IMG/VR virus record: IMGVR_UViG_3300035675_000001
From: a virus
Lineage: Duplodnaviria > Caudoviricetes
Reading direction: 5' to 3' (one strand)
DNA: 64,000 bases
A program made the translations under genes and the position numbers. The notes under the pieces are model-generated. The model was not told where the DNA came from, ran no database searches, and was given only the letters and a program-made list of their open reading frames with translations. Positions 1,221 through 13,387 of this stretch are shown here, piece after piece. How positions within the stretch are numbered: the first letter of the stretch is position 1; each line of letters starts with the position of its first letter.

Positions 1221-2136
1221 GTTCGGCCTCAAATACGACTACCGGCCCTACGTCTGCATGACTTGCGGGCAGGAGAAGATGATCGGCACCAACCACACCG
1301 ACATCTGCTTTGACCACTGCCCAGGGTGCTCCTGGCGCGGCGGTATGCACCCGACCGGCGAAGTTTACCATCCCAGCCACACCCGCGCTTTTCAGTTCGC
1401 AGGACAGGAACCGGAGGACAAAATGATCGACCGTGATTTACTGGGCGAAGCCGATGAGCTTCTGCCGCGCCCGCCCTCGATGAAGGTGCGCGATCTCCAG
1501 GACAAAGCTACCCAGTCGCGGGCAAAACTTGCCCAGCTCCGCGCCCAAATGGGCAACCGGCCCGATGTGCTGGCCAAGATCGACGACCTCGACAAGAAGA
1601 TGAACCAGCGCGACAGCCTGTTGCGCCAGCTCAAATACAGCCTGGAGTTCCGCGAGGCCGCAGCCCGGCACAATGTTCCTCTCGATCAGGTCCGCGCCTT
1701 GATCCCGCACCCCAGCACACCTTTCGGCCAAACGCCACGATCCGTGGTCGGCCTGGTCACCAACGACGGTCGCCGGGTCATGTTCACCCGGCCCATTGAC
1801 GTTCACCGGCCAGATGTCGTTGAGCACTGGGAAGACCTGGATGAAGGCTGGCGCAAATGGGCGGCTGGAGCGGCAATGGGAGCTGCGCTCCTGGGCGCTG
1901 GCATCCACAGCCAGCACCACGCCAAAGCTCCGCAGCAGGCCAGCTACGTCGATCCCGACGCCGAGCGCGAAGCCAAAGCCGAGCAGCGGTTGCGGAACAA
2001 AGCGGACCAGCTCAAGAGCGCCGGAAAAACCAGCGGCACTTTCAAGCAGGGCAAGCTCCAGCCTGACACATTCCAGCCGGGCACACTGGGCGGCTCGAAC
2101 ACCGCCGAGCGCCGTGTCAGCCACACGGACTTCTGA
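1213..2136 (+). CDS. Hypothetical protein with N-terminal CxxC zinc-binding motifs and a hydrophobic segment
   Basis: GTG start inside ORF 1075-2136; CMTC...CPGC; EDLDEGWRKWAAGAAMGAALLG. Confidence 0.6.
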   Translation: MPEFGLKYDYRPYVCMTCGQEKMIGTNHTDICFDHCPGCSWRGGMHPTGEVYHPSHTRAFQFAGQEPEDKMIDRDLLGEADELLPRPPSMKVRDLQDKATQSRAKLAQLRAQMGNRPDVLAKIDDLDKKMNQRDSLLRQLKYSLEFREAAARHNVPLDQVRALIPHPSTPFGQTPRSVVGLVTNDGRRVMFTRPIDVHRPDVVEHWEDLDEGWRKWAAGAAMGAALLGAGIHSQHHAKAPQQASYVDPDAEREAKAEQRLRNKADQLKSAGKTSGTFKQGKLQPDTFQPGTLGGSNTAERRVSHTDF

Positions 2137-2208
2137 TGGAGCCGAAGGCCGGTGCTGCCCCGGCCTGGTCAAGTTTACAAAACTCGTCCCCTCGCTGGAG
2201 GCTTCGGC
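2137..2208 (-). tRNA. tRNA-Thr(TGT)
   Basis: Acceptor GCCGAAG/CTTCGGC, T-CCA; anticodon CGAGT-TTTGTAA-ACTTG; T-loop GGCAGCA; C8. Confidence 0.85.
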
Positions 2209-2250
2209 GTCAATACCTTAGTGCATAGGACGTGTTCCCCGTGGAACAAA

Positions 2251-2326
2251 TGGTGGGCTGGGCGGGCCACGATCCCGCAACCTGACGGTTAAGAGCCGCC
2301 TGCTCTGCCGATTGAGCTACCAACCC
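2251..2326 (-). tRNA. tRNA-Lys(CTT)
   Basis: Cloverleaf with CCA; loop CT-CTT-AA; T-loop ATCGTGG. Confidence 0.9.
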
Positions 2327-2332
2327 GTAAAA

Positions 2333-2407
2333 TGGTCGCTGCGCCCGGACTCGCACCGGGAACCGTCACCTTATGAGGGTGCCGCGCTACTATTGCGCCA
2401 CGCAGCG
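2333..2407 (-). tRNA. tRNA-Met or Ile2 (CAT)
   Basis: C1-G72 paired, so not initiator; loop CT-CAT-AA; T-loop TGCGAGT. Confidence 0.85.
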
Positions 2408-2411
2408 TTCG

Positions 2412-2466
2412 CCTGGCCTTGGTTCGCACCGTGTCTTCGGCACCACCATGACAAGACAGGGCCAGG
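2412..2466 (-). ncRNA. Candidate small structured RNA between tRNAs
   Basis: CCTGGCC/GGCCAGG closing stem, TGTCTT/AAGACA inner stem, GGT-GCGA-ACC GNRA hairpin. Confidence 0.4.
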
Positions 2467-2473
2467 TTTGAAG

Positions 2474-2549
2474 TGGAGCCAACCCAGGGACTTGCACCCT
2501 GCATCACCCGCTTACCAAGCGGGGTCACCGCTGTCTGTGAGTGGTTGGC
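2474..2549 (-). tRNA. tRNA-Thr(GGT)
   Basis: Acceptor GCCAACC/GGTTGGC, T-CCA; loop TT-GGT-AA; T-loop TGCAAGT; A8. Confidence 0.9.
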
Positions 2550-2552
2550 AAA

Positions 2553-2628
2553 TGGAGCGAACGACCGGCAATGATCCGGCAACCTGATGCTTGGAAGGCA
2601 CCTGCTCTGCCTATTGAGCTACGTTCGC
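2553..2628 (-). tRNA. tRNA-Gly(TCC)
   Basis: T73-CCA; loop CT-TCC-AA; T-loop ATCATTG. Confidence 0.9.
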
Positions 2629-2951
2629 GTTGGAAAACCTTGTTCGGCGCGGCGGACCTTTTTGGCGGCTTCACGAGCCTCCCGGCCCGCTTCCCATTCT
2701 TCCGGGGAAGGCACTGGATCAAGAATCTCGTCGCCGGGATGAAGCATCCCGTGGGACCAGCCGCCCTGGCCATCATCGTAGCCGACCGAGTGGTGGATAC
2801 CCCTGCCGATCTCGCGGAGATCGTAATAGCCGTTCCAGTGAGCCTTGACGACCCCCTGCGGCGTGCGGACGCGGATGACTTTTCCGCCGCCTGGGTAATC
2901 TTCCTCACCCTCCAGGAGCGTCTTTACGATGAATTGTGCCACGCTAATCAT
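2619..2951 (-). CDS. Hypothetical protein with N-terminal LLE-acidic motif
   Basis: Start re-assigned to MISVAQFIVKTLLEGEED because the longer ORF overlaps tRNAs; GTAGTTA 8 nt upstream. Confidence 0.65.
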   Translation of the reverse strand: MISVAQFIVKTLLEGEEDYPGGGKVIRVRTPQGVVKAHWNGYYDLREIGRGIHHSVGYDDGQGGWSHGMLHPGDEILDPVPSPEEWEAGREAREAAKKVRRAEQGFPTRT

Positions 2952-2985
2952 GTCGGCATAACTACGCGGGGACTTGAGGACAGAA

Positions 2986-3060
2986 TGGAGGCCAGCCGGG
3001 GAATCGCACCCCGCGCCACGGTTTTGCAGACCGGTCAGTTCGCTTGCTCTGTCGCTGGCC
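2986..3060 (-). tRNA. tRNA-Cys(GCA)
   Basis: T73-CCA; loop CT-GCA-AA; T-loop TGCGATT; G8. Confidence 0.9.
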
Positions 3061-3061
3061 C

Positions 3062-3137
3062 TGGAGCCTCCGGCTGGAATTGCACCAGCCACGTCCTGTT
3101 TACGAAACAGGCGCACCGCTGTCTGTGCTTCGGAGGC
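3062..3137 (-). tRNA. tRNA-Thr(CGT)
   Basis: Loop TT-CGT-AA; T-loop TGCAATT; A8. Confidence 0.9.
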
Positions 3138-3140
3138 AAA

Positions 3141-3215
3141 TGGTGGGAACGGCTGGTGCTGCCCCAGCGACCTTGAGTTTGTAGGACTCCTGCTCTACTG
3201 CTGAGCTACGCTCCC
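3141..3215 (-). tRNA. tRNA-Val(TAC)
   Basis: Loop CC-TAC-AA (C33); T-loop GGCAGCA. Confidence 0.9.
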
Positions 3216-3235
3216 GAAATCGGTTCTAAAAAGGC

Positions 3236-3964
3236 ATGAGTGAATTGTTTCGAGCACGGGTCGAGAAGTTTTTCCTGGAGTATGTCCTCCACGACAGCCC
3301 GCACAGCCGCAATCCGTTTGTCACGACGCACTGCCAACGCTACGTCCACTCCATGCTGTTCGCCGAGGCCGAGCTGAAAGAGGCCAAGGTGATCCTGGAA
3401 GTGGGCGCACCGGGCGCTTTCACCGAGGGCCTGCGGTCCATGCTGCCGGACCTGGTGATCGAAAACTCAAGCGCCGATCTCCGCACCGTCTTTACGGACA
3501 AGCGAGACTACTACGACTTCATCCTGAACATGGAGGTCATCGAGCACATGAAAGACCTGGACGTGCCGGAGGACTGGTTCCATCGGGATGCCTACGTCGG
3601 CGACGGCTTGAAAAATTTTGTAAACACTTGCTACCAGTGCTTGAAACCTGGCGGAAAGATGTTCTTGACGACCCCCAATCTCAGTTCCATCGGAACTCTT
3701 TGGAGGGTAATGAACTGTGGAAACCCATTTTCCTACGAGCTGCACATCCGCGAACTTTCAGTCAGTGATCTCTGGAAGGCGCTCACCGATGCCGGATTCA
3801 AGATCGACCGCTATACAACCATGCGTTGTTACGAGCAAAACCAGGTTCCACCGGACAAAGAGGCCCGAATCATGGGCTTCTTGCGCGAGATGAATCTGCC
3901 CACGGACAACCGCGATGAAGTCCAGTTCGTCTTGGCGTCCAAGCCTGTAGTTAAACCGCAATGA
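3236..3964 (+). CDS. Class I SAM-dependent methyltransferase
   Basis: ILEVGAPG motif I, MEVIEHM, LKPGGKMFLTTPN. Confidence 0.85.
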   Translation: MSELFRARVEKFFLEYVLHDSPHSRNPFVTTHCQRYVHSMLFAEAELKEAKVILEVGAPGAFTEGLRSMLPDLVIENSSADLRTVFTDKRDYYDFILNMEVIEHMKDLDVPEDWFHRDAYVGDGLKNFVNTCYQCLKPGGKMFLTTPNLSSIGTLWRVMNCGNPFSYELHIRELSVSDLWKALTDAGFKIDRYTTMRCYEQNQVPPDKEARIMGFLREMNLPTDNRDEVQFVLASKPVVKPQ

Positions 3965-4101
3965 CGACCTGGCTACTCATAGCGGTAGTTGCCGGACTGG
4001 CTTTCGCTGCCGGATGGTGGTGGAGGGGTCGCCGGAAACGCAGACAAATTCGGGTCGAGTTCGACATCGGCCCAGTAACATTGAAACAAAACTATGGTTA
4101 A
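3961..4101 (+). CDS. Small membrane protein (46 aa)
   Basis: MTTWLLIAVVAGLAFAAGWWWRGRRKRR...; ATGA overlap with upstream stop; GTAGTTA upstream. Confidence 0.5.
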   Translation: MTTWLLIAVVAGLAFAAGWWWRGRRKRRQIRVEFDIGPVTLKQNYG

Positions 4102-4630
4102 GATCACAACCGAACAACAAGTCCGTTTGCACGCGGCCTTCCTGACGGCAGCGGGTTCTCCCGCTCCGATTGAGGGAACGCCGGAATGGAGTGCCGCTCC
4201 TGCGGGAGTGGTCAACCTCATCGTGGACCCTGATGGCCGCGCAGCCCTTTGCCAGAGCGTAGCTGCTGGCACCGCCCAGGTGTCCGTCTCGGCTGACGCC
4301 GACCTTGGCACCGGGGTCCGAACAATCACCGGCACCATCGGGATCGAAGTCAGCGAAGCCTCTGCCGAAGCAGTGGAGATCACCGCCGATACGCCTGAGT
4401 TCAAGACCGTGACGCTTACCGTCACCGTTGAAATGCTCCCGGACGGCACGGCCAAGGTCACCGGCCACGGCAACCCCGACACGCTGTATCACGTCGAAGC
4501 CGCCGATGATGTCGCTGGCCCGTATGCTGAGATCGGGACCACCCTGTCGGATTCGACCGGCGTCGCTATCTTCATCGACCCGGATGCCGCTTCGCACACC
4601 ACTCGGTTTTATCGTCTTCGTTGGCCCTAA
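4094..4630 (+). CDS. Ig-like protein with Verrucomicrobia-type C-terminal domain
   Basis: Beta-rich N-terminal half; ends YHVEAADDVAGPY...FIDPDAASHTTRFYRLRWP. Confidence 0.65.
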   Translation: MVKITTEQQVRLHAAFLTAAGSPAPIEGTPEWSAAPAGVVNLIVDPDGRAALCQSVAAGTAQVSVSADADLGTGVRTITGTIGIEVSEASAEAVEITADTPEFKTVTLTVTVEMLPDGTAKVTGHGNPDTLYHVEAADDVAGPYAEIGTTLSDSTGVAIFIDPDAASHTTRFYRLRWP

Positions 4631-4701
4631 AGGCTGACGTTGTTGGTGGTCAGTCCAGTCGTTGACGGCCCGGAGCTGTTCTCCGGGCCGTTTCTTTGCA
4701 A

Positions 4702-4833
4702 TGGTGGGGACGATAATCCTTCAAGTTCGGCCCTATTCAGGCAAGGATTTTCGGAGGTTTATTTGAGACGGGATTTGAACCCGCGACCTCCCGCTTTTCA
4801 GGCGGGCGCTCTACCAGGCTGAGCTACGTCCCC
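4702..4833 (-). tRNA. tRNA-Phe(GAA) with a 55-nt insert between the T arm and the acceptor 3' strand
   Basis: 5' GGGGACG pairs with distal CGTCCCC-A-CCA; normal D arm; CCCGC-CTGAAAA-GCGGG; T-loop TTCAAAT; insert at 4713-4767. Confidence 0.8.
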
Positions 4834-4853
4834 ATAAATCTGTTCTACGCAAT

Positions 4854-5585
4854 ATGCTGACAATCGGAATCTTGAACTGCAAACGGCAGAATAACGTCGT
4901 GGCCCTGGTCAACCGTTATTCGGCCATGCCCATCGTCTCTCGCGTCACCGTGTGGAGCAGTCCGCCCGGCGACTTCCGCGTGAGCGACAACCCCAAACTC
5001 CTGACCGCGACCTGCGCCCCGGACTGGGGCATGTATGCCCGGTTCCAGTCGGTCCTCAACGCGCCCACGGAGTGGGTCATGACGGTCGATGACGACCTGT
5101 TCATCCCGGAGGAGTCGATCAAGGTCATGCTCGACGCCCGGATGAAGGACAAGGACAAGAGGATCAGCGGCATGTTCGGCAGACGGCCTTCCCAAACCCA
5201 GGGCTTTGCCGTGTTCAAAGACCTGGTGGACGAGGACTGCGAAATCGTCGTGGCCCGCGTCATGGTGTTTCACGTCAGCCTGATCGCCCGCTTCTTCGAT
5301 GTCGTGCGCGACCCGCGCTGGGAGGAGCTTTACGCCAAAGGCCGGGCCAATGGCTGGACAAAGACCACCAACATCGAGGACATCATCATGAGCTACACCG
5401 CGATGCGCGACACCGGCAGGCTCAACCAGATTCACAAGGTGCCCCACCAGGAGTTCGACGCGCCGGAGCCGATCTGGAAGATGCCGAACTTCTTCCCGTA
5501 TCGCCAAGCGGGCCTGACGTTCACCCAGCAGTTTTTCAACAACTGGTCCCACAGCGATCAGCCGACCGGCTGGACCGGCTGTTAA
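4854..5585 (+). CDS. GT-A fold glycosyltransferase (GT64/EXTL-like)
   Basis: VMTVDDDLFI DxD motif; NIEDIIMS resembles the EXTL NCEDI motif. Confidence 0.65.
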   Translation: MLTIGILNCKRQNNVVALVNRYSAMPIVSRVTVWSSPPGDFRVSDNPKLLTATCAPDWGMYARFQSVLNAPTEWVMTVDDDLFIPEESIKVMLDARMKDKDKRISGMFGRRPSQTQGFAVFKDLVDEDCEIVVARVMVFHVSLIARFFDVVRDPRWEELYAKGRANGWTKTTNIEDIIMSYTAMRDTGRLNQIHKVPHQEFDAPEPIWKMPNFFPYRQAGLTFTQQFFNNWSHSDQPTGWTGC

Positions 5586-5586
5586 A

Positions 5587-5661
5587 TGGTGCTCGCGGTT
5601 GGAATCCCACCAACGGCCTCAGCCTTCGCAGGGCTGCGCTCTATAACTGAGCTACGCGAGC
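5587..5661 (-). tRNA. tRNA-Arg(GCG)
   Basis: Loop CT-GCG-AA; T-loop TGGGATT. Confidence 0.9.
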
Positions 5662-5665
5662 AAAA

Positions 5666-5741
5666 TGGTGCCCCAAACTGGAATCTCACCAGTGGCCTTC
5701 GCCTTCGGAGGGCGACGCTCTATAGACTGAGCTACTGGGGC
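5666..5741 (-). tRNA. tRNA-Arg(CCG)
   Basis: Loop CT-CCG-AA; T-loop TGAGATT. Confidence 0.9.
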
Positions 5742-5742
5742 A

Positions 5743-5821
5743 TGGCGTTCCTGGCGGGACTCGCACCCGCTAGAGATTCGGCTTGAAAGGCCGACCGCTG
5801 GACGACTTTGCGCTCAGGAAC
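5743..5821 (-). tRNA. tRNA-Glu(TTC)
   Basis: Loop CT-TTC-AA; G73; T-loop TGCGAGT; A8. Confidence 0.88.
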
Positions 5822-5826
5822 AAAAA

Positions 5827-5903
5827 TGGTATCCCCGGTGGGATTCGCACCCACGATCTTCTGGTTGAGAACCAGGCGTGTTGGGCTGCTACACTACGGG
5901 GAC
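5827..5903 (-). tRNA. tRNA-Glu(CTC)
   Basis: Loop TT-CTC-AA; T-loop TGCGAAT. Confidence 0.9.
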
Positions 5904-5907
5904 AATC

Positions 5908-5977
5908 CACGGACAAGGAGAGCGACGTGGGAGGTTTCTCATTAGTGGTAAGATAACCCACATCAATTCGGCCCGTG
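5908..5977 (-). ncRNA. Minimal Y RNA-like RNA (Ro60-binding stem)
   Basis: CACGGGCCGA...GTGGGTTATCT...CCCAC...CCTTGTCCGTG; bulged-C helix and GUUAUCU as in Y RNAs. Confidence 0.7.
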
Positions 5978-5981
5978 AAAG

Positions 5982-6056
5982 TGGTCCCTGGGATCGGTAA
6001 CGCACCGATGTCTCCGGTTTTTCAGACCGGCGCTAATCTATCTCAGCTACCCAGGG
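5982..6056 (-). tRNA. tRNA-Phe(GAA), uninterrupted copy
   Basis: Loop CT-GAA-AA; T-loop TGCGTTA. Confidence 0.9.
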
Positions 6057-6057
6057 T

Positions 6058-6243
6058 TCAAGGCTCCAGCGTTTCCGCGAGCAGGAGGGCTGCTGCGAGA
6101 CGACGCGCCTCCCTGCGCGTCAGATGATGATAGACGGTCTCGCCTGCGGATGAGGACAAACTGACCTTGATGAAATTGGATCGTCGGGTCTTGGAAACCT
6201 CCACCCGATACTGCTTCGCTTTGCTGACAAGACGGTAGCTCAC
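6058..6243 (-). CDS. Hypothetical protein
   Basis: 61-aa ORF; ATGA overlap with upstream gene. Confidence 0.5.
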   Translation of the reverse strand: MSYRLVSKAKQYRVEVSKTRRSNFIKVSLSSSAGETVYHHLTRREARRLAAALLLAETLEP

Positions 6244-6647
6244 TCAGGGAACCGGGGGAGTTTGTGATCGTCAGCCTGCTTCTCGTAATACTCCAGCTTG
6301 GACCGAATATCGTTCAGCACTTTGGCCAGCTCGGCAGCAAAGCTCACTGGCTCCGGTTCCACTTTGGCGTGAATGATGACCTTCAAATGATCGGCTGCTT
6401 TCTTCTGCGCCCGCATCTCGATGCGGGTTGCGCCCGCCGCCCAGGCGAAGAACAGCGAGTTCAAAAACGCCAGGATGTAATGTGCCGAGCTATGGGACGC
6501 CGCGACCTCGGTCAGACGATAGATGGTGATGACCACGATGCCCAGGAACACCAGCACCCAAATTCTCCGCTTCACGATACGGTAGAGCGTCGTCCACACG
6601 TAGAGGACGTAGAGCTGCAACAGGATCGCTATGACCAAAAATGCCAT
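6240..6647 (-). CDS. Membrane protein (3 TM segments plus basic/coiled tail)
   Basis: Three hydrophobic stretches; GTATTTA upstream. Confidence 0.6.
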   Translation of the reverse strand: MAFLVIAILLQLYVLYVWTTLYRIVKRRIWVLVFLGIVVITIYRLTEVAASHSSAHYILAFLNSLFFAWAAGATRIEMRAQKKAADHLKVIIHAKVEPEPVSFAAELAKVLNDIRSKLEYYEKQADDHKLPRFPE

Positions 6648-6673
6648 GCCGGTCTAAATACGCAGGCTGAAAT

Positions 6674-6750
6674 TGGTAGCCGCAGTTGGAGTTGCACCAA
6701 CGACCTGACGCTTATCAAGCGCCTGCTCTGACTAGCTGAGCTACGCGGCC
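6674..6750 (-). tRNA. tRNA-Ile(GAT)
   Basis: Loop TT-GAT-AA; T-loop TGCAACT. Confidence 0.9.
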
Positions 6751-6753
6751 ACA

Positions 6754-6841
6754 TGGCGGCTGGTGCAGGATTTCCACCTGCGCGGGTTTTACCCCGTCCA
6801 CGGTTTTCGAGACCGGAACCTTGGTGCTCGGTCAACCAGCC
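6754..6841 (-). tRNA. tRNA-Ser(CGA)
   Basis: Long variable arm, G73; loop CT-CGA-AA; T-loop TGGAAAT. Confidence 0.9.
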
Positions 6842-6851
6842 GGAAAGATTT

Positions 6852-6975
6852 GACGGACAAGGGGAACCAAGGAGTTTTTGCTACCTCCGAGGTCACGGCA
6901 CATGGAGCCGTGAGTGAGAGTCGAACTCACATCGCTTCATTTACAGTGAAGATAATCCTCAGTAATCGGCCCGTC
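6852..6975 (-). ncRNA. YrlA-type Y RNA enclosing a circularly permuted tRNA-Tyr(GTA)-like domain
   Basis: GACGGGCCGA/TTGTCCGTC Ro stem; ACTGAGGA/TCCTTGGT; CTTCA-CTGTAAA-TGAAG; GTGAG-TTCGACT-CTCAC; TCACGGC-TCCATGT-GCCGTGA. Confidence 0.8.
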
Positions 6976-6979
6976 AAAA

Positions 6980-7067
6980 TGGCGGATGGTGCAGGATTTC
7001 CACCTGCGCTGGTGTTACCCAGTCCTCCGGCTTCCAACCGGGAACCTTGGTGCTCGGTCAACCATCC
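6980..7067 (-). tRNA. tRNA-Ser(GGA)
   Basis: Long variable arm, G73; loop TT-GGA-AG; T-loop TGGAAAT. Confidence 0.9.
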
Positions 7068-7084
7068 AAAAAGTTTACAAAAAG

Positions 7085-7173
7085 TGGCGGAGGGCACAGG
7101 AGTCCAACCTGTTCAGGTTTCACCCTGGCGTCGGTTTTCAAGACCGCCCCGTTCGACGTTCCGGCAGCCCTCC
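7085..7173 (-). tRNA. tRNA-Ser(TGA)
   Basis: Long variable arm, G73; loop CT-TGA-AA; T-loop TTGGACT. Confidence 0.9.
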
Positions 7174-7194
7174 GCAAGAAGGTAGTTAGCGCAG

Positions 7195-7641
7195 ATGCCG
7201 GAAAAGACATTAGCCTATCACCTGCTGCAAAAGTTTGAAGCAGACCGGGAGAAGATCGAGCGATACTCGTCCATAGCGGAACACTGCCCGCTCCCCGCGT
7301 TTATCGCTGGATCAGACGGCATTTCCATCCTCTACATCAACCCGGCCTACCGGGAATTGACCGGACGCAACATCGAAGAACTCCAGGACGGCAAGTGGGT
7401 TACGTCGGTTATTCACCCGGACGATCAGGCGTCAGTTATTGATGCCTGGAAATTGTTTACAAAAACTGTCCAGCGACAGGCTCATCATCACCGCTATGTT
7501 CACGTCGATGGCCGGGTCACGGATGCGGTGACTGTAGTGGACCGGGTTGAAGGCAACGGCTACGTTGGCTTCATCATTCCCCACTGCGGCAAAGAGGACT
7601 GCCCGATGCAACAGTTGGTCCCACTTGGTCACCACACGTAA
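7195..7641 (+). CDS. Stand-alone PAS-domain protein
   Basis: ILYINPAYRELTGRNIEELQDGKWVTSVIHPDD is a typical PAS_3/PAS_4 signature; no output domain. Confidence 0.8.
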   Translation: MPEKTLAYHLLQKFEADREKIERYSSIAEHCPLPAFIAGSDGISILYINPAYRELTGRNIEELQDGKWVTSVIHPDDQASVIDAWKLFTKTVQRQAHHHRYVHVDGRVTDAVTVVDRVEGNGYVGFIIPHCGKEDCPMQQLVPLGHHT

Positions 7642-7642
7642 A

Positions 7643-7718
7643 TGGTGCTCGCGGCAGGAATCTCACCTGCGACCAGCCGCTTAGGAAACGACCGCTCTGA
7701 TAACTGAGCTACGCGAGC
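7643..7718 (-). tRNA. tRNA-Arg(CCT)
   Basis: Loop TT-CCT-AA; T-loop TGAGATT. Confidence 0.9.
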
Positions 7719-7719
7719 G

Positions 7720-7796
7720 TGGCACCCCTGCCAGGATTCCCACCTGGATCAGACCGCTTAGAAGACGGTCGCTCTAATACATTGAGCTACAGGGGC
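7720..7796 (-). tRNA. tRNA-Arg(TCT)
   Basis: Loop CT-TCT-AA; T-loop TGGGAAT. Confidence 0.9.
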
Positions 7797-7808
7797 TTAC
7801 AACTAAAA

Positions 7809-7884
7809 TGGCTGCCAAGACTGGGGACGATCCAGTAACCGCCCGGTTAACAGCCGGGTGCTCTACCAGTTGAGCTACTTGGCA
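7809..7884 (-). tRNA. tRNA-Asn(GTT)
   Basis: T1-A72, G73; loop CT-GTT-AA; T-loop ATCGTCC. Confidence 0.9.
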
Positions 7885-7890
7885 ATGAAA

Positions 7891-8106
7891 TCAGGCCGGA
7901 ATCGGCGTCGAGCCAGGGATGAACGGGGCTTTGGTGCCGCCGCCTCCACTGGGGTTGGCCGGATTCGGAATGAGCGTGGACTCGGCAACGTAATCGGCAG
8001 CGGTCCCGCCGCCGCCATCAGCCTTGGCCGAGTTTGGAACGAGGGTCGCGCCTGGAGGCGTCGTATCGCCCGTCCGAACCGGCGCTGGAATGATCGTCAT
8101 GTCCAT
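7891..8106 (-). CDS. Small Pro/Gly-rich protein with internal duplication
   Basis: TLVPNSAKADGGGGT / TLIPNPANPSGGGGT; GTAGTTA 6 nt upstream. Confidence 0.55.
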   Translation of the reverse strand: MDMTIIPAPVRTGDTTPPGATLVPNSAKADGGGGTAADYVAESTLIPNPANPSGGGGTKAPFIPGSTPIPA

Positions 8107-8122
8107 CGCTCTTAACTACAAA

Positions 8123-8199
8123 TGGTCAGCGCGGAGGGCTTCGATCCCTCGGCCTCCTGGCCCCGAACCAGGCGCTCTGCCAAGCTGAGCTACGCGCTG
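8123..8199 (-). tRNA. tRNA-Pro(CGG)
   Basis: C1-G72, A73, G37; T-loop ATCGAAG. Confidence 0.9.
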
Positions 8200-8206
8200 A
8201 TGAAAA

Positions 8207-8282
8207 TGGTCGGGCTGGCCGGGTATGATCCGGCGACCTTCTGGCCCCCAGCCAGACGCGCTGCCAACTGCGCTACAGCCCG
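8207..8282 (-). tRNA. tRNA-Pro(GGG)
   Basis: C1-G72; loop CT-GGG-GG; T-loop ATCATAC. Confidence 0.9.
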
Positions 8283-8286
8283 AAAA

Positions 8287-8361
8287 TGGTCAGGGCGGGG
8301 AGTTTCGCAATCCCGGCCTCCTGGTCCCAAGCCAGGCGCTCTGCTTCTGAGCTACGCCCTG
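8287..8361 (-). tRNA. tRNA-Pro(TGG)
   Basis: C1-G72; loop CT-TGG-GA; T-loop TGCGAAA with a T53.C61 mismatch. Confidence 0.85.
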
Positions 8362-8387
8362 ATCGCCGTGTAGTTACGGTGAAAGTT

Positions 8388-10454
8388 ATGGAAATCACAT
8401 ACGTTCCAGACCCGTCCAAAGCGGATGGCAAACCGGTTGTTGCCGAGGTTGTTGCCCTGGGCACGACTGTTGTTCAATTCGCCACGCCACAACAGGTTTA
8501 CGTGACGGGCGGGACGCTCGCCACGAACGTCCAGTTCACCGGCTCAATTTCGACCGACATCGGCAACGTCAAAATCGAAGACCAGAACGGAAACTACGCC
8601 GAAATGCCAGCGGCGAGTGACGCCAAGACTGGAGCCAACAAAGCCCTACTCGTTCAGCACGTTGACGAAACCGGAACTCCGCTCCGCCAATCGACGCAGG
8701 TCAGCATCATGCAGAACCAGGGGACGCTCGCAACAAGCGCCCTCCAGGCTACCGGAATCGCACTGGCCTCGGTCATCCTGAACAACCAGGGCACCCAGGC
8801 CACAGCAGCTCTCCAGCAAGCAGGCAACGGCGCTCTGAGCGTAATTGTAAACAACCAGGGCACCCAGGCCACGGTCGCAGCTCAGGATAGCCAGACAGCG
8901 ATCCTGGCCGTGATGATGAACAATCAGGGCACGCTGACTCCGGCAACGGACTCGACGACCCTGACGGCGGTCATGAACAACCAGGGGACGCAGGCGACCT
9001 CGGCCAAGCAAGATGCCACGAACAACCTGCTGACGGTCATCATGAACGCGCAGGGGACGCAGGCGACCAGCGAGGTCGCTGAAAGCATTACGTTCTCGGC
9101 CATCCTGAACAACCAAGGAACCCTGGCGACCAGCGCCCAACAGACCGCCGCACAGGCGACGCTGACCACGGTCATGAACAGCCAGGGGACACAGAGCACG
9201 GCGCTGCTCTCGCCCATCCTGAATGCTTTCGGAACTCTCGCTACGGCGGCAGCTCAAGCCAACGGAAATACAGCTCTCCAAAATCTGCTGACGCCCATCC
9301 TGAACGCCCAGGGCACGCAGAGCACTGCCCTGCTGTTGCCCATCCTGAACAACCAGGGAACTCAGGCGACCAGCGCCAACCAGGAGACCCAAATCACGGC
9401 GCTGAACACGCTGATCGACACCCTGCGGTCGGTCGATACGGTTGGGACCAACCTCGAAGTGACGCTGTTCAATGGCGTTTACGCAGTCGGACCCAGTGTG
9501 GCTGCCAACGTCAACGGCTACACCCGGCACACCGTCCAGCACGTCATCATGAACGGCAGCGTGGCCGCGCACATCGAGACCAGCCTTGACGGCACGACCT
9601 GGAATACCGAAGCGGTCGATACGGCTTCAAATCTTCAACGGCTCACGGGAGCCTGCAAATACATCCGCGCCGTTTACATGGGCGGAGCGGGCACGCTCAG
9701 CACCTTCCTGAACTCGGCAGCCGGAAACGGAGGCGGAGCGCCCAACGGCGCAGGCCAAGCCGAGCTTTGCATCGTCGGCACCGTTGCCAGCACCCTGGGG
9801 TCAGCCGTGGCTTTCGAGACGGGAGGGGCCAACAGCTTAGGCTTCCACTACGAGCCGCCTGCCGGTTCGACTTCGATTTTTGAAGGTTCGTGGGACGGCA
9901 GCCATTGGGTTGACATAACGCTGCGCCAAATGGGAGCGCACGGCTACACAAGCATCACCGATGACACCCACCAGGATTGGGTCGGTTCATGCGCGACATG
10001 GCGCTATTTTCGCCTGCGAATCACCCAGGGCGGCACAGGTGTTGGAGTTATCAGAGGCAGGTTCAGCTATGCTCCCAGCACGATTGAAGGCGTCGAAAAC
10101 CAGGCGATGCCCCACCGCATCGGCGCATCATCGCAATCAAAGAGCTTTTCCTTTACTGGCGTCACAAGCAACGGGACCATTTGGGCACCCACTACATCTT
10201 ACCACCGGCTCTACATCACGGACTTGTTCTTCACGGTCGATGCTACGACTACTGTCATCTTCTCCGATGGCAGCAACGCAGAAGGCAAACTCGTCTTCAA
10301 GGGCAAATTCAAACCCGCGTCTGGCGAAAGCTCCTATGTCCCGGCTGCTTTTTCACTCCCGCACGTATTCACCGGACCCAACCGGGCGCTGATGTTCACG
10401 CAAAGCGGAGGCGCAGAAGTTGACGGCGTGGTTCACGGCTACGAAGCAGAATAA
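8388..10454 (+). CDS. Repeat-rich fibre-like (probable virion) protein
   Basis: Many (N/S/A)QGT(Q/L)AT repeats followed by beta-rich C-terminal domains; start moved out of tRNA-Pro (in-frame GTG at 8379 also possible). Confidence 0.7.
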   Translation: MEITYVPDPSKADGKPVVAEVVALGTTVVQFATPQQVYVTGGTLATNVQFTGSISTDIGNVKIEDQNGNYAEMPAASDAKTGANKALLVQHVDETGTPLRQSTQVSIMQNQGTLATSALQATGIALASVILNNQGTQATAALQQAGNGALSVIVNNQGTQATVAAQDSQTAILAVMMNNQGTLTPATDSTTLTAVMNNQGTQATSAKQDATNNLLTVIMNAQGTQATSEVAESITFSAILNNQGTLATSAQQTAAQATLTTVMNSQGTQSTALLSPILNAFGTLATAAAQANGNTALQNLLTPILNAQGTQSTALLLPILNNQGTQATSANQETQITALNTLIDTLRSVDTVGTNLEVTLFNGVYAVGPSVAANVNGYTRHTVQHVIMNGSVAAHIETSLDGTTWNTEAVDTASNLQRLTGACKYIRAVYMGGAGTLSTFLNSAAGNGGGAPNGAGQAELCIVGTVASTLGSAVAFETGGANSLGFHYEPPAGSTSIFEGSWDGSHWVDITLRQMGAHGYTSITDDTHQDWVGSCATWRYFRLRITQGGTGVGVIRGRFSYAPSTIEGVENQAMPHRIGASSQSKSFSFTGVTSNGTIWAPTTSYHRLYITDLFFTVDATTTVIFSDGSNAEGKLVFKGKFKPASGESSYVPAAFSLPHVFTGPNRALMFTQSGGAEVDGVVHGYEAE

Positions 10455-10458
10455 TTTT

Positions 10459-12417
10459 ATGAGCCTACTCGACATCAATCAGACTCAGGTCGCAGCAGTC
10501 ATGGCCCCGGTTATCAATAACCAGGGGACACAGGCGACGGAGCAGACGCTCATCACCGTCATGAACAGTCAGGGCACGCAGGCAACTGCTGCCCTCCAGG
10601 CCAACAGCAACGCTCTCCTGACCACCATCATGAACAACCAGGGGACGCTCGCCGATTACGACGACGCGACTCTCCAGGCGGTCATGAACAACCAGGGGAC
10701 GTTGGCCACGAGCAGCAAACAGGACGCTCAAACTGCCATCCTGGGTGCGATGCTGAACAACCAGGGAACACTGACTCCTGTAACTGGTGGAGCCACAGAA
10801 ATCACTTTGGTCCGACTTGCTAATGACCAAGGCACGTTGGCCACGAGTGCGAATCAAGCCGCGAGCAATGCCTTGTTAACGGTCGTAATGAATGACCAGG
10901 GCACATTGGCGACCAGCTCCTATCAGGCGGTCCAGCTCGAACTCCTGGGCTTGATTCTGAACAGCCAGGGAACTCAAAACACGTCCAGCCTGGCGACCAG
11001 CGCCAACCAGGCGCAGGCCAACAGCTCCCTCACAGTCATTCAGAACAACCAAGGAACGCAGGCCACGGCATCGAACCAAAGCACTGAAATCAGCCTGCTC
11101 AGCCTGATCCTGAACGCCCAGGGGACTCAAGGCGAAGGGCTGAACGCACTCTCACAACAGCAAGCGGACACGGTAACGACTTACGGACCAACCGGAACTC
11201 TAGCCTCAGCGCGAGTGGCCACGCTGATGACGACTGATCCGAACTCGGTAAGCGTTGACGCATTTGGTCGGCTGCGCGTCAGCAACGCGGACTACCGGTT
11301 TGACGGCCAGCTTGTTTACCAGGTCAACGCTGACCTATGGGACTCCGCCTGGAACAGCACTGGCACGGTGACCTATGACCGCAAGAACCGAATGGCTCAG
11401 CTCACTTGCGCGGCTAACGGCACCAGCGTCATGCAGAGCCACTATCACGTCCCCTACACGCCCGGACGCGGCCAGCTCGCTTTCGTCACGTTTGCCGGAA
11501 CGGCTGCGCCAGCCGAAAACACCTACCACCGGGTAGGCTACTTCGACGAGACAAACGGTATTTTCCTGGAGCGCACCAGCGCGGGAGCAAGCTTGACACT
11601 CAAAAGCTCAACCGATGCGGGGTCCGAGACAGTTTTACAGGCAAACTGGAACATCGACAAGATGGACGGCACCGGCCCCAGCGGGTTAACGCTCGACCTG
11701 ACCAAATCTCAAATCCTGTTTATCCAGCTCCAGGCGCTCTACATCGGTCGTGTAATCGTCGGCTTCGACATCGACGGCGTTGCCTGGCCGGTCCATCAGT
11801 TCACGCACGCCAACAAGTTCGTCAAGCCCTACATTGGCAACGCGAGCTTGCCGGTGCGCTACGAAGTGGGTTCAACGGGCGTCAATACCGCCCAGCTTAA
11901 TCCCGTCTGCGCCTCCGTCATCAGCGAAGGCGGCGGGCCGCTGATCGACATTCCGGCCCGCACATTCACCGCAGGCAACGGTGCAACACCCATCAGCGTA
12001 AACGCCCGGAGACCCGTGCTTTCAATCAGGCCCAAAGCGCAGTTTAACCAAAACCAGAACGAAGGCATTGTTCTGCCGTCTGACCTGTCGATCCGAAATT
12101 CGACTGCGGACATCTACGTTGAAGTCATCCGCAACGCCGTGCTCACGGGAGCATCCTGGACAAGCGTGGATGCGGTCAACAGCGTTTGTGAATATGATGT
12201 CGCGGCAACTGCCGTCAGCGGAGGCCAAACGGTTTTCTCAGGCTACAGCAACGTCTCGTCAGGGCTATCAACAAGCATCAAGGACAACCTGCTCAGCCGC
12301 CTGACCATCGTCTATTCAGAACTTCTTCAAACAGCGGACACGCTCACCATCGTCTGCACATCTCTCGGCGGTGCTGCTTCAACTGTCGCCGCGCTTAACT
12401 GGAAAGAAATTCGTTGA
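10459..12417 (+). CDS. Repeat-rich fibre-like protein, paralog of the upstream gene in its N-terminal half
   Basis: NNQGT(Q/L)AT repeats, then VSVDAFGRLRVS and a beta-rich C-terminal domain of a kind seen in phage virion proteins. Confidence 0.7.
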   Translation: MSLLDINQTQVAAVMAPVINNQGTQATEQTLITVMNSQGTQATAALQANSNALLTTIMNNQGTLADYDDATLQAVMNNQGTLATSSKQDAQTAILGAMLNNQGTLTPVTGGATEITLVRLANDQGTLATSANQAASNALLTVVMNDQGTLATSSYQAVQLELLGLILNSQGTQNTSSLATSANQAQANSSLTVIQNNQGTQATASNQSTEISLLSLILNAQGTQGEGLNALSQQQADTVTTYGPTGTLASARVATLMTTDPNSVSVDAFGRLRVSNADYRFDGQLVYQVNADLWDSAWNSTGTVTYDRKNRMAQLTCAANGTSVMQSHYHVPYTPGRGQLAFVTFAGTAAPAENTYHRVGYFDETNGIFLERTSAGASLTLKSSTDAGSETVLQANWNIDKMDGTGPSGLTLDLTKSQILFIQLQALYIGRVIVGFDIDGVAWPVHQFTHANKFVKPYIGNASLPVRYEVGSTGVNTAQLNPVCASVISEGGGPLIDIPARTFTAGNGATPISVNARRPVLSIRPKAQFNQNQNEGIVLPSDLSIRNSTADIYVEVIRNAVLTGASWTSVDAVNSVCEYDVAATAVSGGQTVFSGYSNVSSGLSTSIKDNLLSRLTIVYSELLQTADTLTIVCTSLGGAASTVAALNWKEIR

Positions 12418-12502
12418 CGTAAGCCAGTCACGCCGGTCGCTGGCATAACCAACGACCGGCATGGCAGGGGCGTGTTGCTGCTCTGCTTCATCAGCAGGAC
12501 AA

Positions 12503-12579
12503 TGGCGGGCACGACCGGACTCGCACCGGCTGACTTCGCCGTGACAGGGCGCTGATTCGACTCCTTCATCTCCGTGCCC
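12503..12579 (-). tRNA. tRNA-Asp(GTC)
   Basis: G73; loop CT-GTC-AC; T-loop TGCGAGT; G8. Confidence 0.9.
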
Positions 12580-12585
12580 GTAAAA

Positions 12586-12673
12586 TGGTGGGAGGCGCTG
12601 GTTACGCTCCAGCCGCCACTACCCGTGATGTTGAAGGCACCGGTTTTACAGACCGGCCACGGGACCGCCTCCC
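12586..12673 (-). tRNA. tRNA-Tyr(GTA)-like RNA lacking a D arm
   Basis: Acceptor GGGAGGC/GCCTCCC, A-CCA; CCGGT-CTGTAAA-ACCGG; only 10 nt between acceptor and anticodon stems; T-loop AGCGTAA. Confidence 0.75.
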
Positions 12674-12675
12674 AT

Positions 12676-12764
12676 TTACCCAGGTCCAAACCACTGTGGC
12701 TCTGACCCCGTTACTTCCGCTGTGGCGCGTAGGGGCCTTCCTCCACTCTTTCTGGACTGGGCAA
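12676..12764 (-). ncRNA. Candidate rod-like structured RNA
   Basis: TTGCCCAG/CTGGGTAA, TCCAGA/TTTGGA, GTGG/CCAC, GGCCCC/GGGGTC nested stems. Confidence 0.5.
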
Positions 12765-12775: not shown

Positions 12776-13297
12776 ATGAAATTGATACCGGTTCTCATGG
12801 CGTGTTTGGTTCTTTCAGGCTGTATGATCGTCAACGTGAAAGAACGGGGCTTTCCGCCCGAACACCAAATTGTAAACTTTGATCGGGTGACCAGCGACCT
12901 CTACCGGGGCGCTCAACCGACCATCGCCAGCCTCGATTACCTCAAGTCGTTGGGGATCAAAAGCGTCGTCTGCCTGCGAGAACCTTCTGACATTCTGCCG
13001 GGCGAACCAATATCGGTCTCGGCGCTCGGCCTGCGCTTCGAGAACCTGCCGATGGACGGCGTGACGGCTCCCAGCGAAGCGGACATAGACAAGATGCTGG
13101 ACGTGATCGACGCGCTGCCCAAGCCGGTCTTCATCCACTGCCAGTTCGGCTGCGACCGCACCGGGACCGTGATCGCCTGCTGGCGCATCAAGCATGGCTG
13201 GGACAACGACGCAGCCTACCGGGAAGCCAAGCAATACGGCATCTCGCCGCTGCTCCCGGCGCTTCATCATCTCATCAAGACCTACAAGAAAAAGTAA
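12776..13297 (+). CDS. Cys-based protein tyrosine/dual-specificity phosphatase, lipoprotein
   Basis: HCQFGCDRTG (CX5R), LYRGAQP; lipobox LVLSGC. Confidence 0.85.
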   Translation: MKLIPVLMACLVLSGCMIVNVKERGFPPEHQIVNFDRVTSDLYRGAQPTIASLDYLKSLGIKSVVCLREPSDILPGEPISVSALGLRFENLPMDGVTAPSEADIDKMLDVIDALPKPVFIHCQFGCDRTGTVIACWRIKHGWDNDAAYREAKQYGISPLLPALHHLIKTYKKK

Positions 13298-13385
13298 CGG
13301 GCAAGGGTTGGCGTCGGAGATGCCTGGTTGCCCAGGCGGTTTCCATACCAATGATAGAAGATAACCGACATCCATTCGGCCCGTT
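13296..13385 (-). ncRNA. Y RNA-like RNA (Ro60-binding stem)
   Basis: AACGGGCCGA...GTCGGTTATCT...CCGAC...CCTTGCCCGTT; inner hairpins TTCTAT/ATGGAA and GCCTGG-GCAA-CCAGGC. Confidence 0.75.
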
Positions 13386-13387
13386 GA

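What the first reader, a model, noticed from the sequence alone, without database searches (positions are those of the whole stretch)
6852..6975. Y RNA enclosing a nearly complete circularly permuted tRNA-Tyr, with anticodon arm and internal CCA
Seen, in order: Ro stem 5' strand, upper stem ACTGAGGA, TTAT, a perfect anticodon arm CTTCA-CT GTA AA-TGAAG, 4-nt variable loop, T arm with TTCGACT, acceptor 3' strand TCACGGC, loop T-CCA-TGT, acceptor 5' strand GCCGTGA, D-like segment, then TCCTTGGT and CTTGTCCGTC. A tRNA scanner would call a broken tRNA-Tyr because the true 5' acceptor strand lies downstream of CCA. Established: YrlA RNAs have T, acceptor-like and D elements in this order. Inference: an intact anticodon loop plus a CCA in the acceptor loop means one cut after CCA would yield a two-piece, chargeable or decoy tRNA. 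It may be an evolutionary intermediate between tRNA and YrlA, or bait for anticodon nucleases.
Basis: partly seen in the sequence, partly recalled or inferred. Interest (0 to 1): 0.86.

Follow-up and report, generated by a model that had tools for sequence, protein, structure and literature searches.

The report
Phage Y RNA with tRNA-like core
This is a real, conserved small RNA gene in a giant phage's tRNA cluster: a variant of the known YrlA class of tRNA-mimicking Y RNAs that partner the Ro60 protein, not a hidden tyrosine tRNA.

Summary
An ortholog in a 238-kb viral contig keeps all five helices through 8 compensatory pairs. A 9-sequence alignment is 94% paired.

The same phage encodes a Ro60 protein (TROVE + vWA) 6.4 kb before the window start. 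A syntenic ortholog that still has a canonical D arm matches Rfam YrlA weakly. The target is therefore a YrlA-lineage Y RNA that has lost its D stem, and it misses the Rfam model.

The "anticodon arm" is the stem-loop that Chen et al. 2014 called the V arm. It occurs in Mycobacterium, Gordonia, Streptomyces, Rhodococcus and Sinorhizobium phage YrlAs. Its 7-nt loop always has U at position 2 and R-A at positions 6-7, while the middle triplet varies (GUA, UGA, GCU, UGG, UGC, GCA). Tyr identity is not supported.

The 7-bp acceptor hairpin followed by N73-CCA and a 2-6 nt leader ending in U recurs in five phage RNAs, so it is not chance. It matches M. smegmatis YrlA, which RNase P cleaves and which ends in CCA.

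Verdict: a new variant of a known kind, of moderate interest. The scan has noted phage Ro60/Y-RNA sets on other genomes before.

The parts
6966..6977 (-). Ro60-binding helix, 5' strand (UUGACGGGCCGA). C6968 is bulged. GCCGAU matches the YrlA GNCGAA motif at 5 of 6 positions.
   Evidence: Motif from PMC4201824. Contigs in runs X7 and X11 read GCCGAA through the change at 6965.
6956..6963 (-). Upper stem, 5' strand (ACUGAGGA). It pairs with 6866-6873.
   Evidence: 2 double and 2 single compensatory changes against the ortholog. 7 of 8 pairs covary in 9 sequences.
6952..6955 (-). UUAU, the conserved YUAY motif of YrlA RNAs.
   Evidence: Motif described in PMC4201824.
6935..6951 (-). Hairpin H: 5-bp stem and 7-nt loop CUGUAAA. 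It is positionally the YrlA 'V' stem-loop.
   Evidence: The stem covaries in relatives (4 of 5 pairs). Loop pattern N-U-NNN-R-A is seen in 10 phage RNAs.
6931..6934 (-). 4-nt variable-loop-like linker CGAU, ending in a pyrimidine.
   Evidence: A pyrimidine at the last variable-loop position is conserved in YrlA (10.1101/312249).
6914..6930 (-). T arm: GUGAG / UUCGACU / CUCAC.
   Evidence: 3 double compensatory changes against the ortholog. Its canonical UUCRA loop is absent from the 24 ordinary phage tRNAs checked.
6893..6913 (-). Acceptor-like hairpin with a 7-bp stem. The loop has U6906 (N73-like), CCA at 6905-6903 and leader UGU at 6902-6900. The predicted RNase P site lies between U6900 and G6899.
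   Evidence: 3 double compensatory changes and an invariant loop. The same format occurs in 5 phage RNAs. Precedent: M. smegmatis YrlA.
6874..6892 (-). D-like segment of 19 nt. It keeps GGUAG (G18G19-like) but has no D stem and no UA linker.
   Evidence: 18 of 19 nt are identical in the ortholog. The corresponding region of the G002 ortholog is UA plus GCUC/GAGC D arm plus A-rich linker.
6866..6873 (-). Upper stem, 3' strand (UCCUUGGU).
6850..6860 (-). Ro60-binding helix, 3' strand (UUGUCCGUCAA). The linker UCCCC at 6861-6865 precedes it.
6980..7067 (-). Upstream tRNA-Ser(GGA). Its CCA end lies 2 nt before the extended Ro helix (U6977) and 4 nt before the core helix (G6975).
6757..6841 (-). 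Downstream tRNA-Ser(CGA), missed by ARAGORN. It starts 10 nt after the core helix end (C6852), so its RNase P site would set the Y RNA 3' end.
   Evidence: 36.7 bits.
5906..5979 (-). Paralogous small Y RNA: Ro helix, upper stem, UUAUC and one hairpin.
   Evidence: 37 bits.
13294..13387 (-). Paralogous Y RNA with two hairpins.
   Evidence: 26.9 bits.
4713..4834 (-). tRNA-Phe with an inverted Ro-type module inserted between the T arm and the acceptor 3' strand. It belongs to the same RNA family context.

Best explanation
The element is a phage-encoded Y RNA of the YrlA lineage.

Shown by homology:
- Its terminal bulged helix is the docking site for the phage's own Ro60 protein.
- That helix encloses a circularly permuted tRNA-like body made of hairpin H, a short variable loop, a T arm, a 7-bp acceptor hairpin and a degenerate D region.

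Inferred:
- It is transcribed with the surrounding tRNA array.
- Its ends are set by tRNA-processing enzymes acting on the flanking tRNA-Ser genes.
- The acceptor hairpin has the format of a junction between two tandem tRNA genes: N73, CCA, a 3-nt spacer ending in U, then G+1.
- RNase P therefore most likely cuts before G6899. Exonucleases would then trim back to CCA.
- The result would be a nicked, two-piece Ro60-bound RNA with a tRNA-like CCA end, as documented for M. smegmatis YrlA.
- The tRNA-like body would then present a tRNA mimic to a tRNA- or RNA-handling partner. Host PNPase is the documented one for other Ro60/Y RNA particles.

Hairpin H is the family's conserved 'V' stem-loop. It looks like an anticodon arm but carries no conserved anticodon.
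For: Phage context and Ro60:
- The window is phage DNA: PolA, NAD ligase, baseplate J and 24 tRNAs.
- Contig L058 is 100% identical to window 1-3813.
- L058 carries a 567-aa TROVE (162 bits) + vWA_Ro60 (178 bits) protein 6.4-8.1 kb before the window start, on the same strand. It is 71% identical to the Ro60 of the ortholog-bearing contig.
- All four viral contigs that carry related Y modules encode TROVE proteins.

Orthologs and structure:
- The syntenic ortholog L017:1895-2023 has 8 double compensatory pairs.
- RNAalifold on four orthologs recovers the same helices.
- 94% of cells are paired across 9 sequences.

Link to YrlA:
- Ortholog L051:1501-1635 scores 68 bits with my model. It also scores 35.9 bits, E = 2.6e-4, over the full length of Rfam YrlA RF02553.
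- My model finds the known YrlAs of Mycobacterium phage Jedediah, Gordonia phage Boopy and Streptomyces phage Comrade. Rfam YrlA hits overlap them.

Acceptor loop:
- 7/7-bp acceptor, N73-CCA and a leader ending in U(-1) occur in five RNAs.
- The Ro60-adjacent YrlA of this same phage instead closes its 7-bp stem with a GCAA tetraloop.
- Spacers between tandem tRNAs in the same array are 1-7 nt.

Published precedents:
- RNase P cleavage plus a CCA end in M. smegmatis YrlA (PMC4201824).
- A phage Ro60 binds phage Y-like RNAs and host PNPase (PMC12135203).
Against: - There is no transcript, end-mapping or binding datum. No RNA run holds the sequence.
- The target gets no Rfam YrlA hit even at E <= 10.
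- It lacks the D stem and the UA linker. Its T-stem sequence differs from the strongly conserved YrlA T stem (10.1101/312249). An elbow-recognising YrlA partner may therefore not bind it.
- Ro60 lies about 13 kb away, outside the 4-kb rule of the original survey.
- The single-sequence MFE prefers a competing fold by about 6 kcal/mol.
- RNase P cleavage of a closed 7-nt loop is inferred from one species only.
Confidence: 0.72

Rival explanations
1. It is a decoy or sensor for tRNA-targeting host defences. The nicked, CCA-ended tRNA look-alike with an anticodon-like loop would be cleaved or bound by host anticodon or CCA-tail nucleases. That would either titrate them or recruit Ro60 with PNPase or RNA-repair enzymes to damaged tRNAs. 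This adds a function on top of the Y RNA identity; it does not replace it.
For: - The hairpin loop keeps the U-turn signature (U at position 2, R-A at positions 6-7) in 10 phage RNAs.
- N73-CCA is conserved in five of them.
- The phage has a large tRNA array. Phage tRNAs are known to counter tRNA-cleaving defences (PMC10264068, PMC11555353). A tRNA-tail-cleaving Cas12a3 is reported (PMC12851939).
- Bacterial rsr-yrlA sits in RtcB repair operons induced by damaged tRNAs (PMC7790460; 10.1101/312249).
Against: - There is no experimental link.
- No RNA ligase or repair gene was found next to the element.
- The loop triplet varies without any pattern tied to known nuclease targets.
- The Ro60-adjacent YrlA of the same phage lacks both the 7-nt-loop hairpin and the CCA.
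Confidence: 0.1
2. It is a permuted or split tRNA gene. Its processed pieces would form a working, aminoacylated tRNA (Tyr by the GUA triplet) used in translation.
For: - The de-permuted forms of three relatives are called full tRNAs by ARAGORN at default thresholds.
- The Rfam tRNA model aligns the hairpin, variable loop, T arm and acceptor 3' strand at 23.4 bits.
- CCA is encoded.
- Permuted tRNA genes exist in algae and archaea (10.1101/312249).
Against: - The triplet is not conserved among orthologs: GUA, UGA, GCU.
- U73 and the lack of a long variable arm do not fit bacterial tRNA-Tyr (established knowledge).
- The D stem is absent, and the target is not called at the default threshold.
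- The Ro-type helix is conserved rather than excised-looking, and Ro60 is encoded by every relative.
- No bulge-helix-bulge motif or splicing endonuclease is known in bacteria.
Confidence: 0.04
3. It is a decaying remnant of two tandem tRNA genes with no function of its own.
For: The acceptor loop has the format of a tandem-tRNA junction, and the D stem is lost.
Against: - By my count on alignment A1, 19 of 25 differences from the ortholog fall in stems, and pairing is kept in all but one pair.
- The unpaired D-like 19-mer and the UCCAUGU loop are invariant or nearly so.
- The Ro-type helix is conserved, and paralogs share it.
Confidence: 0.03

Closest known systems
YrlA (Y RNA-like A), Rfam RF02553. 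Includes the phage YrlAs of cluster C mycobacteriophages (Chen et al. 2014, PMC4201824; structure in Wang et al. 2018, 10.1101/312249).
   Same: - Ro-type 5' motif and bulged closing helix.
- YUAY motif.
- Stem-loop upstream of the T arm ('V').
- T arm with a UUCRA loop.
- Acceptor-like hairpin between the T and D regions.
- A-rich linker before the 3' strand of the upper stem.
- Partner Ro60 gene in the genome.
- Neighbourhood of tRNA genes.
   Different: - No D stem and no UA linker.
- The T-stem sequence is not the conserved GCGGG/CCCGC type.
- No Rfam hit.
- About 13 kb from Ro60, inside the tRNA array.
- The acceptor loop encodes N73-CCA plus a leader, where most YrlAs have a closed tetraloop or a long stem.
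Mycobacterium smegmatis YrlA (Chen et al. 2014).
   Same: A 7-bp acceptor stem. It is the documented case of RNase P cleavage in the acceptor loop, giving two Rsr-bound halves, the 5' half ending in CCA.
   Different: There only the C is encoded and CA is added. Here the full CCA and a 3-nt leader are encoded. I could not retrieve the M. smegmatis sequence for a direct alignment.
Thermus phage phiLo Ro60 with Yrl1/Yrl2 (PMC12135203).
   Same: A phage-encoded Ro60 binding phage-encoded Y-like RNAs, with a ternary complex with host PNPase shown in vitro.
   Different: Those RNAs are described as stem-bulge-stem Y RNAs next to the Ro60 gene. The paper's text does not use the term 'tRNA-like'.
Circularly permuted tRNA genes of Cyanidioschyzon and some archaea (Soma et al. 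2007, as cited in 10.1101/312249).
   Same: The 3' half precedes the 5' half. The acceptor stem is initially closed by a loop that is opened by RNase P or RNase Z.
   Different: Those are spliced through a circular intermediate into working tRNAs. Here the terminal helix is a conserved Ro60-binding module, and no conserved anticodon exists.

Membership tests
YrlA (RF02553) | Ro60-binding 5' motif GNCGAA(N0-1)G in a terminal helix | tested here: met
   GCCGAU matches 5 of 6 positions, and contigs in runs X7 and X11 read GCCGAA. The bulged helix GGGC[C]GA/UUGUCC is conserved, with covariation in the outer pairs.
YrlA (RF02553) | tRNA-like T stem-loop | tested here: met
   GUGAG/UUCGACU/CUCAC, with 3 compensatory pairs against the ortholog.
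YrlA (RF02553) | [quoted passage not shown] | tested here: met
   7-bp hairpin at 6913-6893, with 3 compensatory pairs.
YrlA (RF02553) | Conserved D stem-loop preceded by UA | tested here: not met
   CC is followed by a 19-nt unpaired segment that keeps only GGUAG. The syntenic ortholog L051 has UA plus GCUC/GAGC.
YrlA (RF02553) | Score at or above the Rfam gathering cut-off (69 bits) | tested here: not met
   No hit at E <= 10 on a 141-nt search. The ortholog scores 35.9 bits, and known phage YrlAs score 28-52 bits, all below the cut-off.
YrlA (RF02553) | Encoded with a Ro60 (TROVE) ortholog, within 4 kb in the original survey | tested here: inconclusive
   Ro60 is present in the same phage but about 13 kb away. 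The relatives have gaps of 10-15 kb.
YrlA (RF02553) | Bound by Ro60/Rsr in vivo | not testable with these tools
   No RNA or RIP data are available. No RNA run holds the sequence.
Functional tRNA-Tyr | Detected as a tRNA with a full cloverleaf | tested here: not met
   ARAGORN makes no call. Rfam tRNA gives 23.4 bits, below 29. The de-permuted construct is called only at an 80% threshold.
Functional tRNA-Tyr | Anticodon conserved among orthologs; Tyr identity set (A73, long variable arm in bacteria) | tested here: not met
   The triplet is GUA, UGA or GCU in three orthologs, and the discriminator is U. The identity rules come from established knowledge.
RNase P-cleaved YrlA subtype (M. smegmatis type) | 7-bp acceptor stem stacked on the T arm, with a 3' (N)CCA-type end after cleavage | tested here: met
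   7/7 bp, U-CCA, and a leader UGU with U at -1. Cleavage itself is not testable here.

The most novel reading that the evidence does not exclude
A subclass of phage YrlA RNAs (this one, its metagenomic orthologs, and those of Sinorhizobium phage Phosso and Rhodococcus phage Trina) are complete class-I tRNA cloverleaves. They are permuted at the acceptor end and carry the Ro60-binding module as an insertion between the D arm and a true anticodon arm. After RNase P opens the acceptor loop, they would become Ro60-tethered, CCA-ended and possibly aminoacylated tRNA surrogates. These would act as bait or sensors for host tRNA-cleaving defences.
Probability: 0.12. Interest if true: 0.8.

Novelty: new variant of a known kind. 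Interest (0 to 1): 0.42.

Why it matters
Phage Ro60/Y RNA particles have no known role in infection, and the partner of the YrlA tRNA-like domain is unknown.

This locus shows that one giant phage carries several different Y RNAs. One is a closed-acceptor YrlA beside the Ro60 gene. Another, inside the tRNA array, has an acceptor loop that looks like a tandem-tRNA junction with CCA encoded.

That contrast, repeated in cultured phages, gives a direct handle on two questions. The first is whether RNase P nicking and a CCA end matter for Ro60 particles. The second is whether YrlAs arose from dimeric tRNA transcripts, as Sim and Wolin proposed (cited in 10.1101/312249).

The analysis also suggests that the stem-loop called 'V' in YrlA may be an anticodon-arm homolog. 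This bears on how the RNA folds in three dimensions.

Tried and rejected
- blastn and megablast of the element and of 20 kb of the window against INPHARED phages gave no match.
- A metagenome scan for GGGCCGA...CCTCGGAGGTAGCA gave 0 hits.
- A viral scan for the CCA loop plus the D-like block returned only L017.
- Two genome scans with M. smegmatis YrlA primer sequences from the paper found no M. smegmatis locus, only chance hits. No direct alignment to the validated RNA was possible.
- The supplementary alignments of Chen 2014 are not held. The reviews PMC6047535 and PMC10870794 are not held.
- No whole genome is held for the window.
- The sequencing-run search found DNA holders only: wetland, freshwater, soil and subsurface metagenomes.
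- Laying contigs gave a few variants but no full diverged copy.
- An alternative pairing of CUGAGG with CCUCGG right after the acceptor stem was considered. I rejected it as the main fold, because the ortholog introduces a U-U mismatch there while the downstream partner covaries.
- MAFFT alone misaligns the acceptor and D regions of distant YrlAs, so I used model-based alignment and regex parsing instead.
- Several model hits in phage Phosso turned out to be ordinary tRNAs.

Full report
**Observation.** The element lies on the minus strand.
- A terminal helix UUGACGGGCCGA / UUGUCCGUCAA with a bulged C.
- An 8-bp upper stem, ACUGAGGA/UCCUUGGU.
- UUAU.
- A 5-bp hairpin with the 7-nt loop CUGUAAA.
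- CGAU.
- A T arm with loop UUCGACU.
- A perfect 7-bp hairpin UCACGGC/GCCGUGA closed by U-CCA-UGU.
- A 19-nt D-like stretch.

ARAGORN calls no tRNA there. The Rfam tRNA model aligns the hairpin, variable loop, T arm and acceptor 3' strand at 23.4 bits, below its 29-bit cut-off. The fold is more stable than shuffles (z = -3.4). However, the single-sequence MFE (-44.3 kcal/mol) prefers a competing pairing over the structure proposed here (-38.5).

**Context.** The window is phage DNA. It carries family A DNA polymerase, NAD-dependent ligase, a baseplate J-like protein and a helicase. ARAGORN finds 24 tRNA genes, all on the minus strand. There is no close relative among 50,697 phage records.

The element sits between tRNA-Ser(GGA) at 6980-7067 and a tRNA-Ser(CGA) at 6757-6841. 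Only Rfam detects the second one. The spacers are 2-4 nt upstream and 10 nt downstream of the core helix.

The window has no Ro60 gene. A metagenome contig that is 100% identical to window 1-3813 (L058) extends 9.2 kb further. It carries a 567-aa protein with TROVE (162 bits) and Ro60-vWA (178 bits) domains on the same strand, 6.4-8.1 kb before the window start. Next to that gene lie three RNAs:
- a tmRNA;
- a Y-like RNA (35 bits with my model);
- a YrlA that Rfam detects at 42 bits.

**Orthologs and structure.** A pattern scan of viral contigs gave a syntenic ortholog, L017:1895-2023, in a 238-kb contig. It follows the same run of tRNA genes: Pro x3, Asn, Arg x2, Ser x2.
- By my count on the alignment, 19 of the 25 differing columns fall in stems.
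- 8 pairs change on both sides: 2 in the upper stem, 3 in the T stem and 3 in the acceptor stem.
- 98.6% of cells pair, against 34-42% when partners are slid.
- The UCCAUGU loop is invariant and the 19-nt D-like stretch is 18/19 identical.

A covariance model built from the two found further homologs:
- a more distant syntenic ortholog in two other viral contigs (L051:1501-1635, 68 bits);
- a homolog in Sinorhizobium phage Phosso (42 bits);
- the YrlAs of Mycobacterium phage Jedediah, Gordonia phage Boopy and Streptomyces phage Comrade (24-30 bits);
- two smaller paralogs in the window.

RNAalifold on an independent MAFFT alignment of four orthologs predicts the same five helices. In a 9-sequence alignment, 94% of cells pair and 30 of 36 pairs show double changes. 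That alignment is fitted to the model, so it leans toward the structure. All four viral contigs with related Y modules encode a TROVE protein.

**Relation to YrlA.** Rfam holds YrlA (RF02553). The target gives no hit even at E <= 10.

The L051 ortholog is matched over the full model at 35.9 bits, E = 2.6e-4. It still has the canonical UA linker and a GCUC/GAGC D arm. Known phage YrlAs also score below the 69-bit cut-off, at 28-52 bits.

The architecture shared by all of them runs in this order:
1. Ro helix;
2. upper stem;
3. YUAY;
4. hairpin;
5. 4-6 nt linker;
6. T arm;
7. acceptor-like hairpin;
8. UA plus D arm;
9. A-rich linker (GCUAAAAAC type);
10. upper stem 3' strand.

The target fits this order except that the 3' strand of the D stem and the UA linker are gone. 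I therefore read it as a D-stem-less derivative within the YrlA lineage, not as a standard member.

Its stem covaries across relatives. Its 7-nt loop reads as follows:

| RNA | Loop |
|---|---|
| target | CUGUAAA |
| L017 | CUUGAAA |
| L051 | AUGCUAA |
| Phosso | AUUGGAA |
| Jedediah | AUUGCAA |
| Boopy | AUUGGGA |
| Comrade | AUUGGAA |
| Trina | CUGCAAA |
| L068 / L065 | CUGUUAA |
| L070 | AUAUGGA |

U at position 2, a purine at position 6 and A at position 7 are constant. The middle triplet is not. A Tyr identity is therefore unsupported, and the feature is common in phage YrlAs, not unique to this RNA.

The hairpin is followed by a 4-6 nt linker that is often the canonical AGGUC-type variable loop, which is the spacing expected after an anticodon stem. 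In contrast, the D arm is separated from the upper stem by 8-10 nt.

I tested this in silico by removing the Ro module and un-permuting the order.
- The L051, Phosso and Trina RNAs are then called complete cloverleaf tRNAs by ARAGORN at default thresholds, with the hairpin as the anticodon arm.
- The target and L017 are called only at an 80% threshold.

Whether the hairpin stacks like an anticodon arm or projects like a variable arm cannot be settled here.

**The CCA loop.** Five RNAs have a 7/7-bp acceptor stem directly followed by N73-CCA and a 2-6 nt leader ending in U before the +1 base. They are the target, L017, L051, Phosso and Trina.

Other YrlAs close the stem differently:
- a tetraloop in Boopy (UUCG by eye), Comrade (CUCU) and the Ro60-adjacent YrlA of this same phage (GCAA);
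- a long insert in Jedediah.

All but one of the 24 ARAGORN-called tRNA genes, and the Rfam-only tRNA-Ser(CGA), encode CCA. The exception is the split tRNA-Phe at 4762-4834, whose CCA lies beyond the called interval. Spacers between neighbouring tRNA genes are 1-7 nt. The loop is therefore formally a tandem-tRNA junction.

This matches M. smegmatis YrlA, which has a 7-bp stem. It is cut by RNase P in vitro and in vivo, and its Rsr-bound 5' half ends in CCA. It also fits the dimeric-tRNA origin model quoted by Wang et al..

**Mechanism.**
- Shown: a conserved structured RNA, a Ro-type helix, and a Ro60 gene in the same genome.
- Inferred: co-transcription with the tRNA array, ends set by processing of the flanking tRNAs, RNase P cleavage before G6899, trimming back to CCA, and a two-piece Ro60-bound tRNA mimic.

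The downstream partner is unknown. PNPase is the documented partner of bacterial Ro60/Y RNA particles, and a Thermus phage Ro60/Y-like RNA pair binds host PNPase in vitro. The loss of the D stem and the non-canonical T stem suggest that this paralog has diverged in what it binds.

**Rivals.**
- A decoy or sensor role against tRNA-cleaving defences is compatible with the data but untested.
- A working tRNA-Tyr is contradicted by the variable triplet, U73 and the missing D stem.
- A decaying tandem-tRNA remnant is contradicted by the compensatory substitutions.

**Limits.** There are no RNA data. No M. smegmatis sequence was available for direct comparison. The published supplementary alignments are not held. 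Earlier notes of this scan on the same window led me to the paralogs and to the T-loop oddity. Similar phage Ro60/Y-RNA sets were noted before on other genomes.

Noticed in passing
window 606-15428 (all tRNA genes): None of the 24 ordinary tRNAs checked has the universal U54-U55-C56. This counts 23 ARAGORN calls plus the Rfam-only tRNA-Ser(CGA). Their T loops read UGCGA, UGGGA, UGAGA, AUCGU, AUCAU or UUGGA. All 24 encode CCA. The tRNA-Phe with the Y-module insert is the exception: it has GGGUUCAAAUCCC. The Y-linked tRNA-like RNAs also keep UUCRA.
   Followed up: partly
window 4713-4834 (-): A tRNA-Phe(GAA) is interrupted between its T arm and acceptor 3' strand by a ~55-nt insert. The insert carries the Ro-type helix in inverted order (CCUUGCC, loop, GGGCCGA) plus GGAUUAUC. 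It is a tRNA/Y-RNA chimera of the opposite permutation.
   Followed up: partly
window 5906-5979 (-) and 13294-13387 (-): Two smaller Y RNAs share the same closing helix, upper stem and UUAUC. They carry only one or two hairpins and no T arm.
   Followed up: partly
L058:3150-4003 (-), 5.1-6.0 kb before the window start: Just upstream of the Ro60 gene lie a phage tmRNA (111.6 bits), a 150-nt Y-like RNA, and a canonical-looking YrlA. The YrlA has a GCAA-closed 7-bp acceptor stem and a full D arm.
   Followed up: partly
window 6757-6841 (-): ARAGORN misses a tRNA-Ser(CGA) with a long variable arm. Rfam finds it at 36.7 bits.
   Followed up: no
L017:2030-2170 (+): Directly after the ortholog lies another tRNA-like RNA. 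It has an acceptor 5' strand, an inverted Ro-type module (CCCUUGUCC...CGGGCCGA...GGUUAUC), an anticodon-like arm, a UUCGA T arm and a CCA end.
   Followed up: no
L044:1501-1617 (Sinorhizobium phage Phosso, record 420514-420630): A permuted tRNA-like RNA sits next to a small Y RNA. It runs anticodon-like arm, T arm, acceptor 3' strand, G-CCA-AU, acceptor 5' strand, D-like region. Its closing helix lacks the GNCGA motif.
   Followed up: no
L056:2643-2851 (Rhodococcus phage Trina): The record's 'tRNA-OTHER' pseudogene upstream of Ro60 contains a Y-type module (GAGCCGA...GGUUAUC) and two UUCGA T arms. A Band-7-like gene follows Ro60, echoing the Band-7/tRNA-like link cited in 10.1101/312249.
   Followed up: no
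L017:689-791 (+): The ortholog-bearing contig has an extra YrlA-like RNA (Rfam 27.8 bits) between two tRNA-Arg genes. Its short acceptor stem is also closed by U-CCA-UCG. In the window, the two matching tRNA-Arg genes are only 1 nt apart.
   Followed up: no
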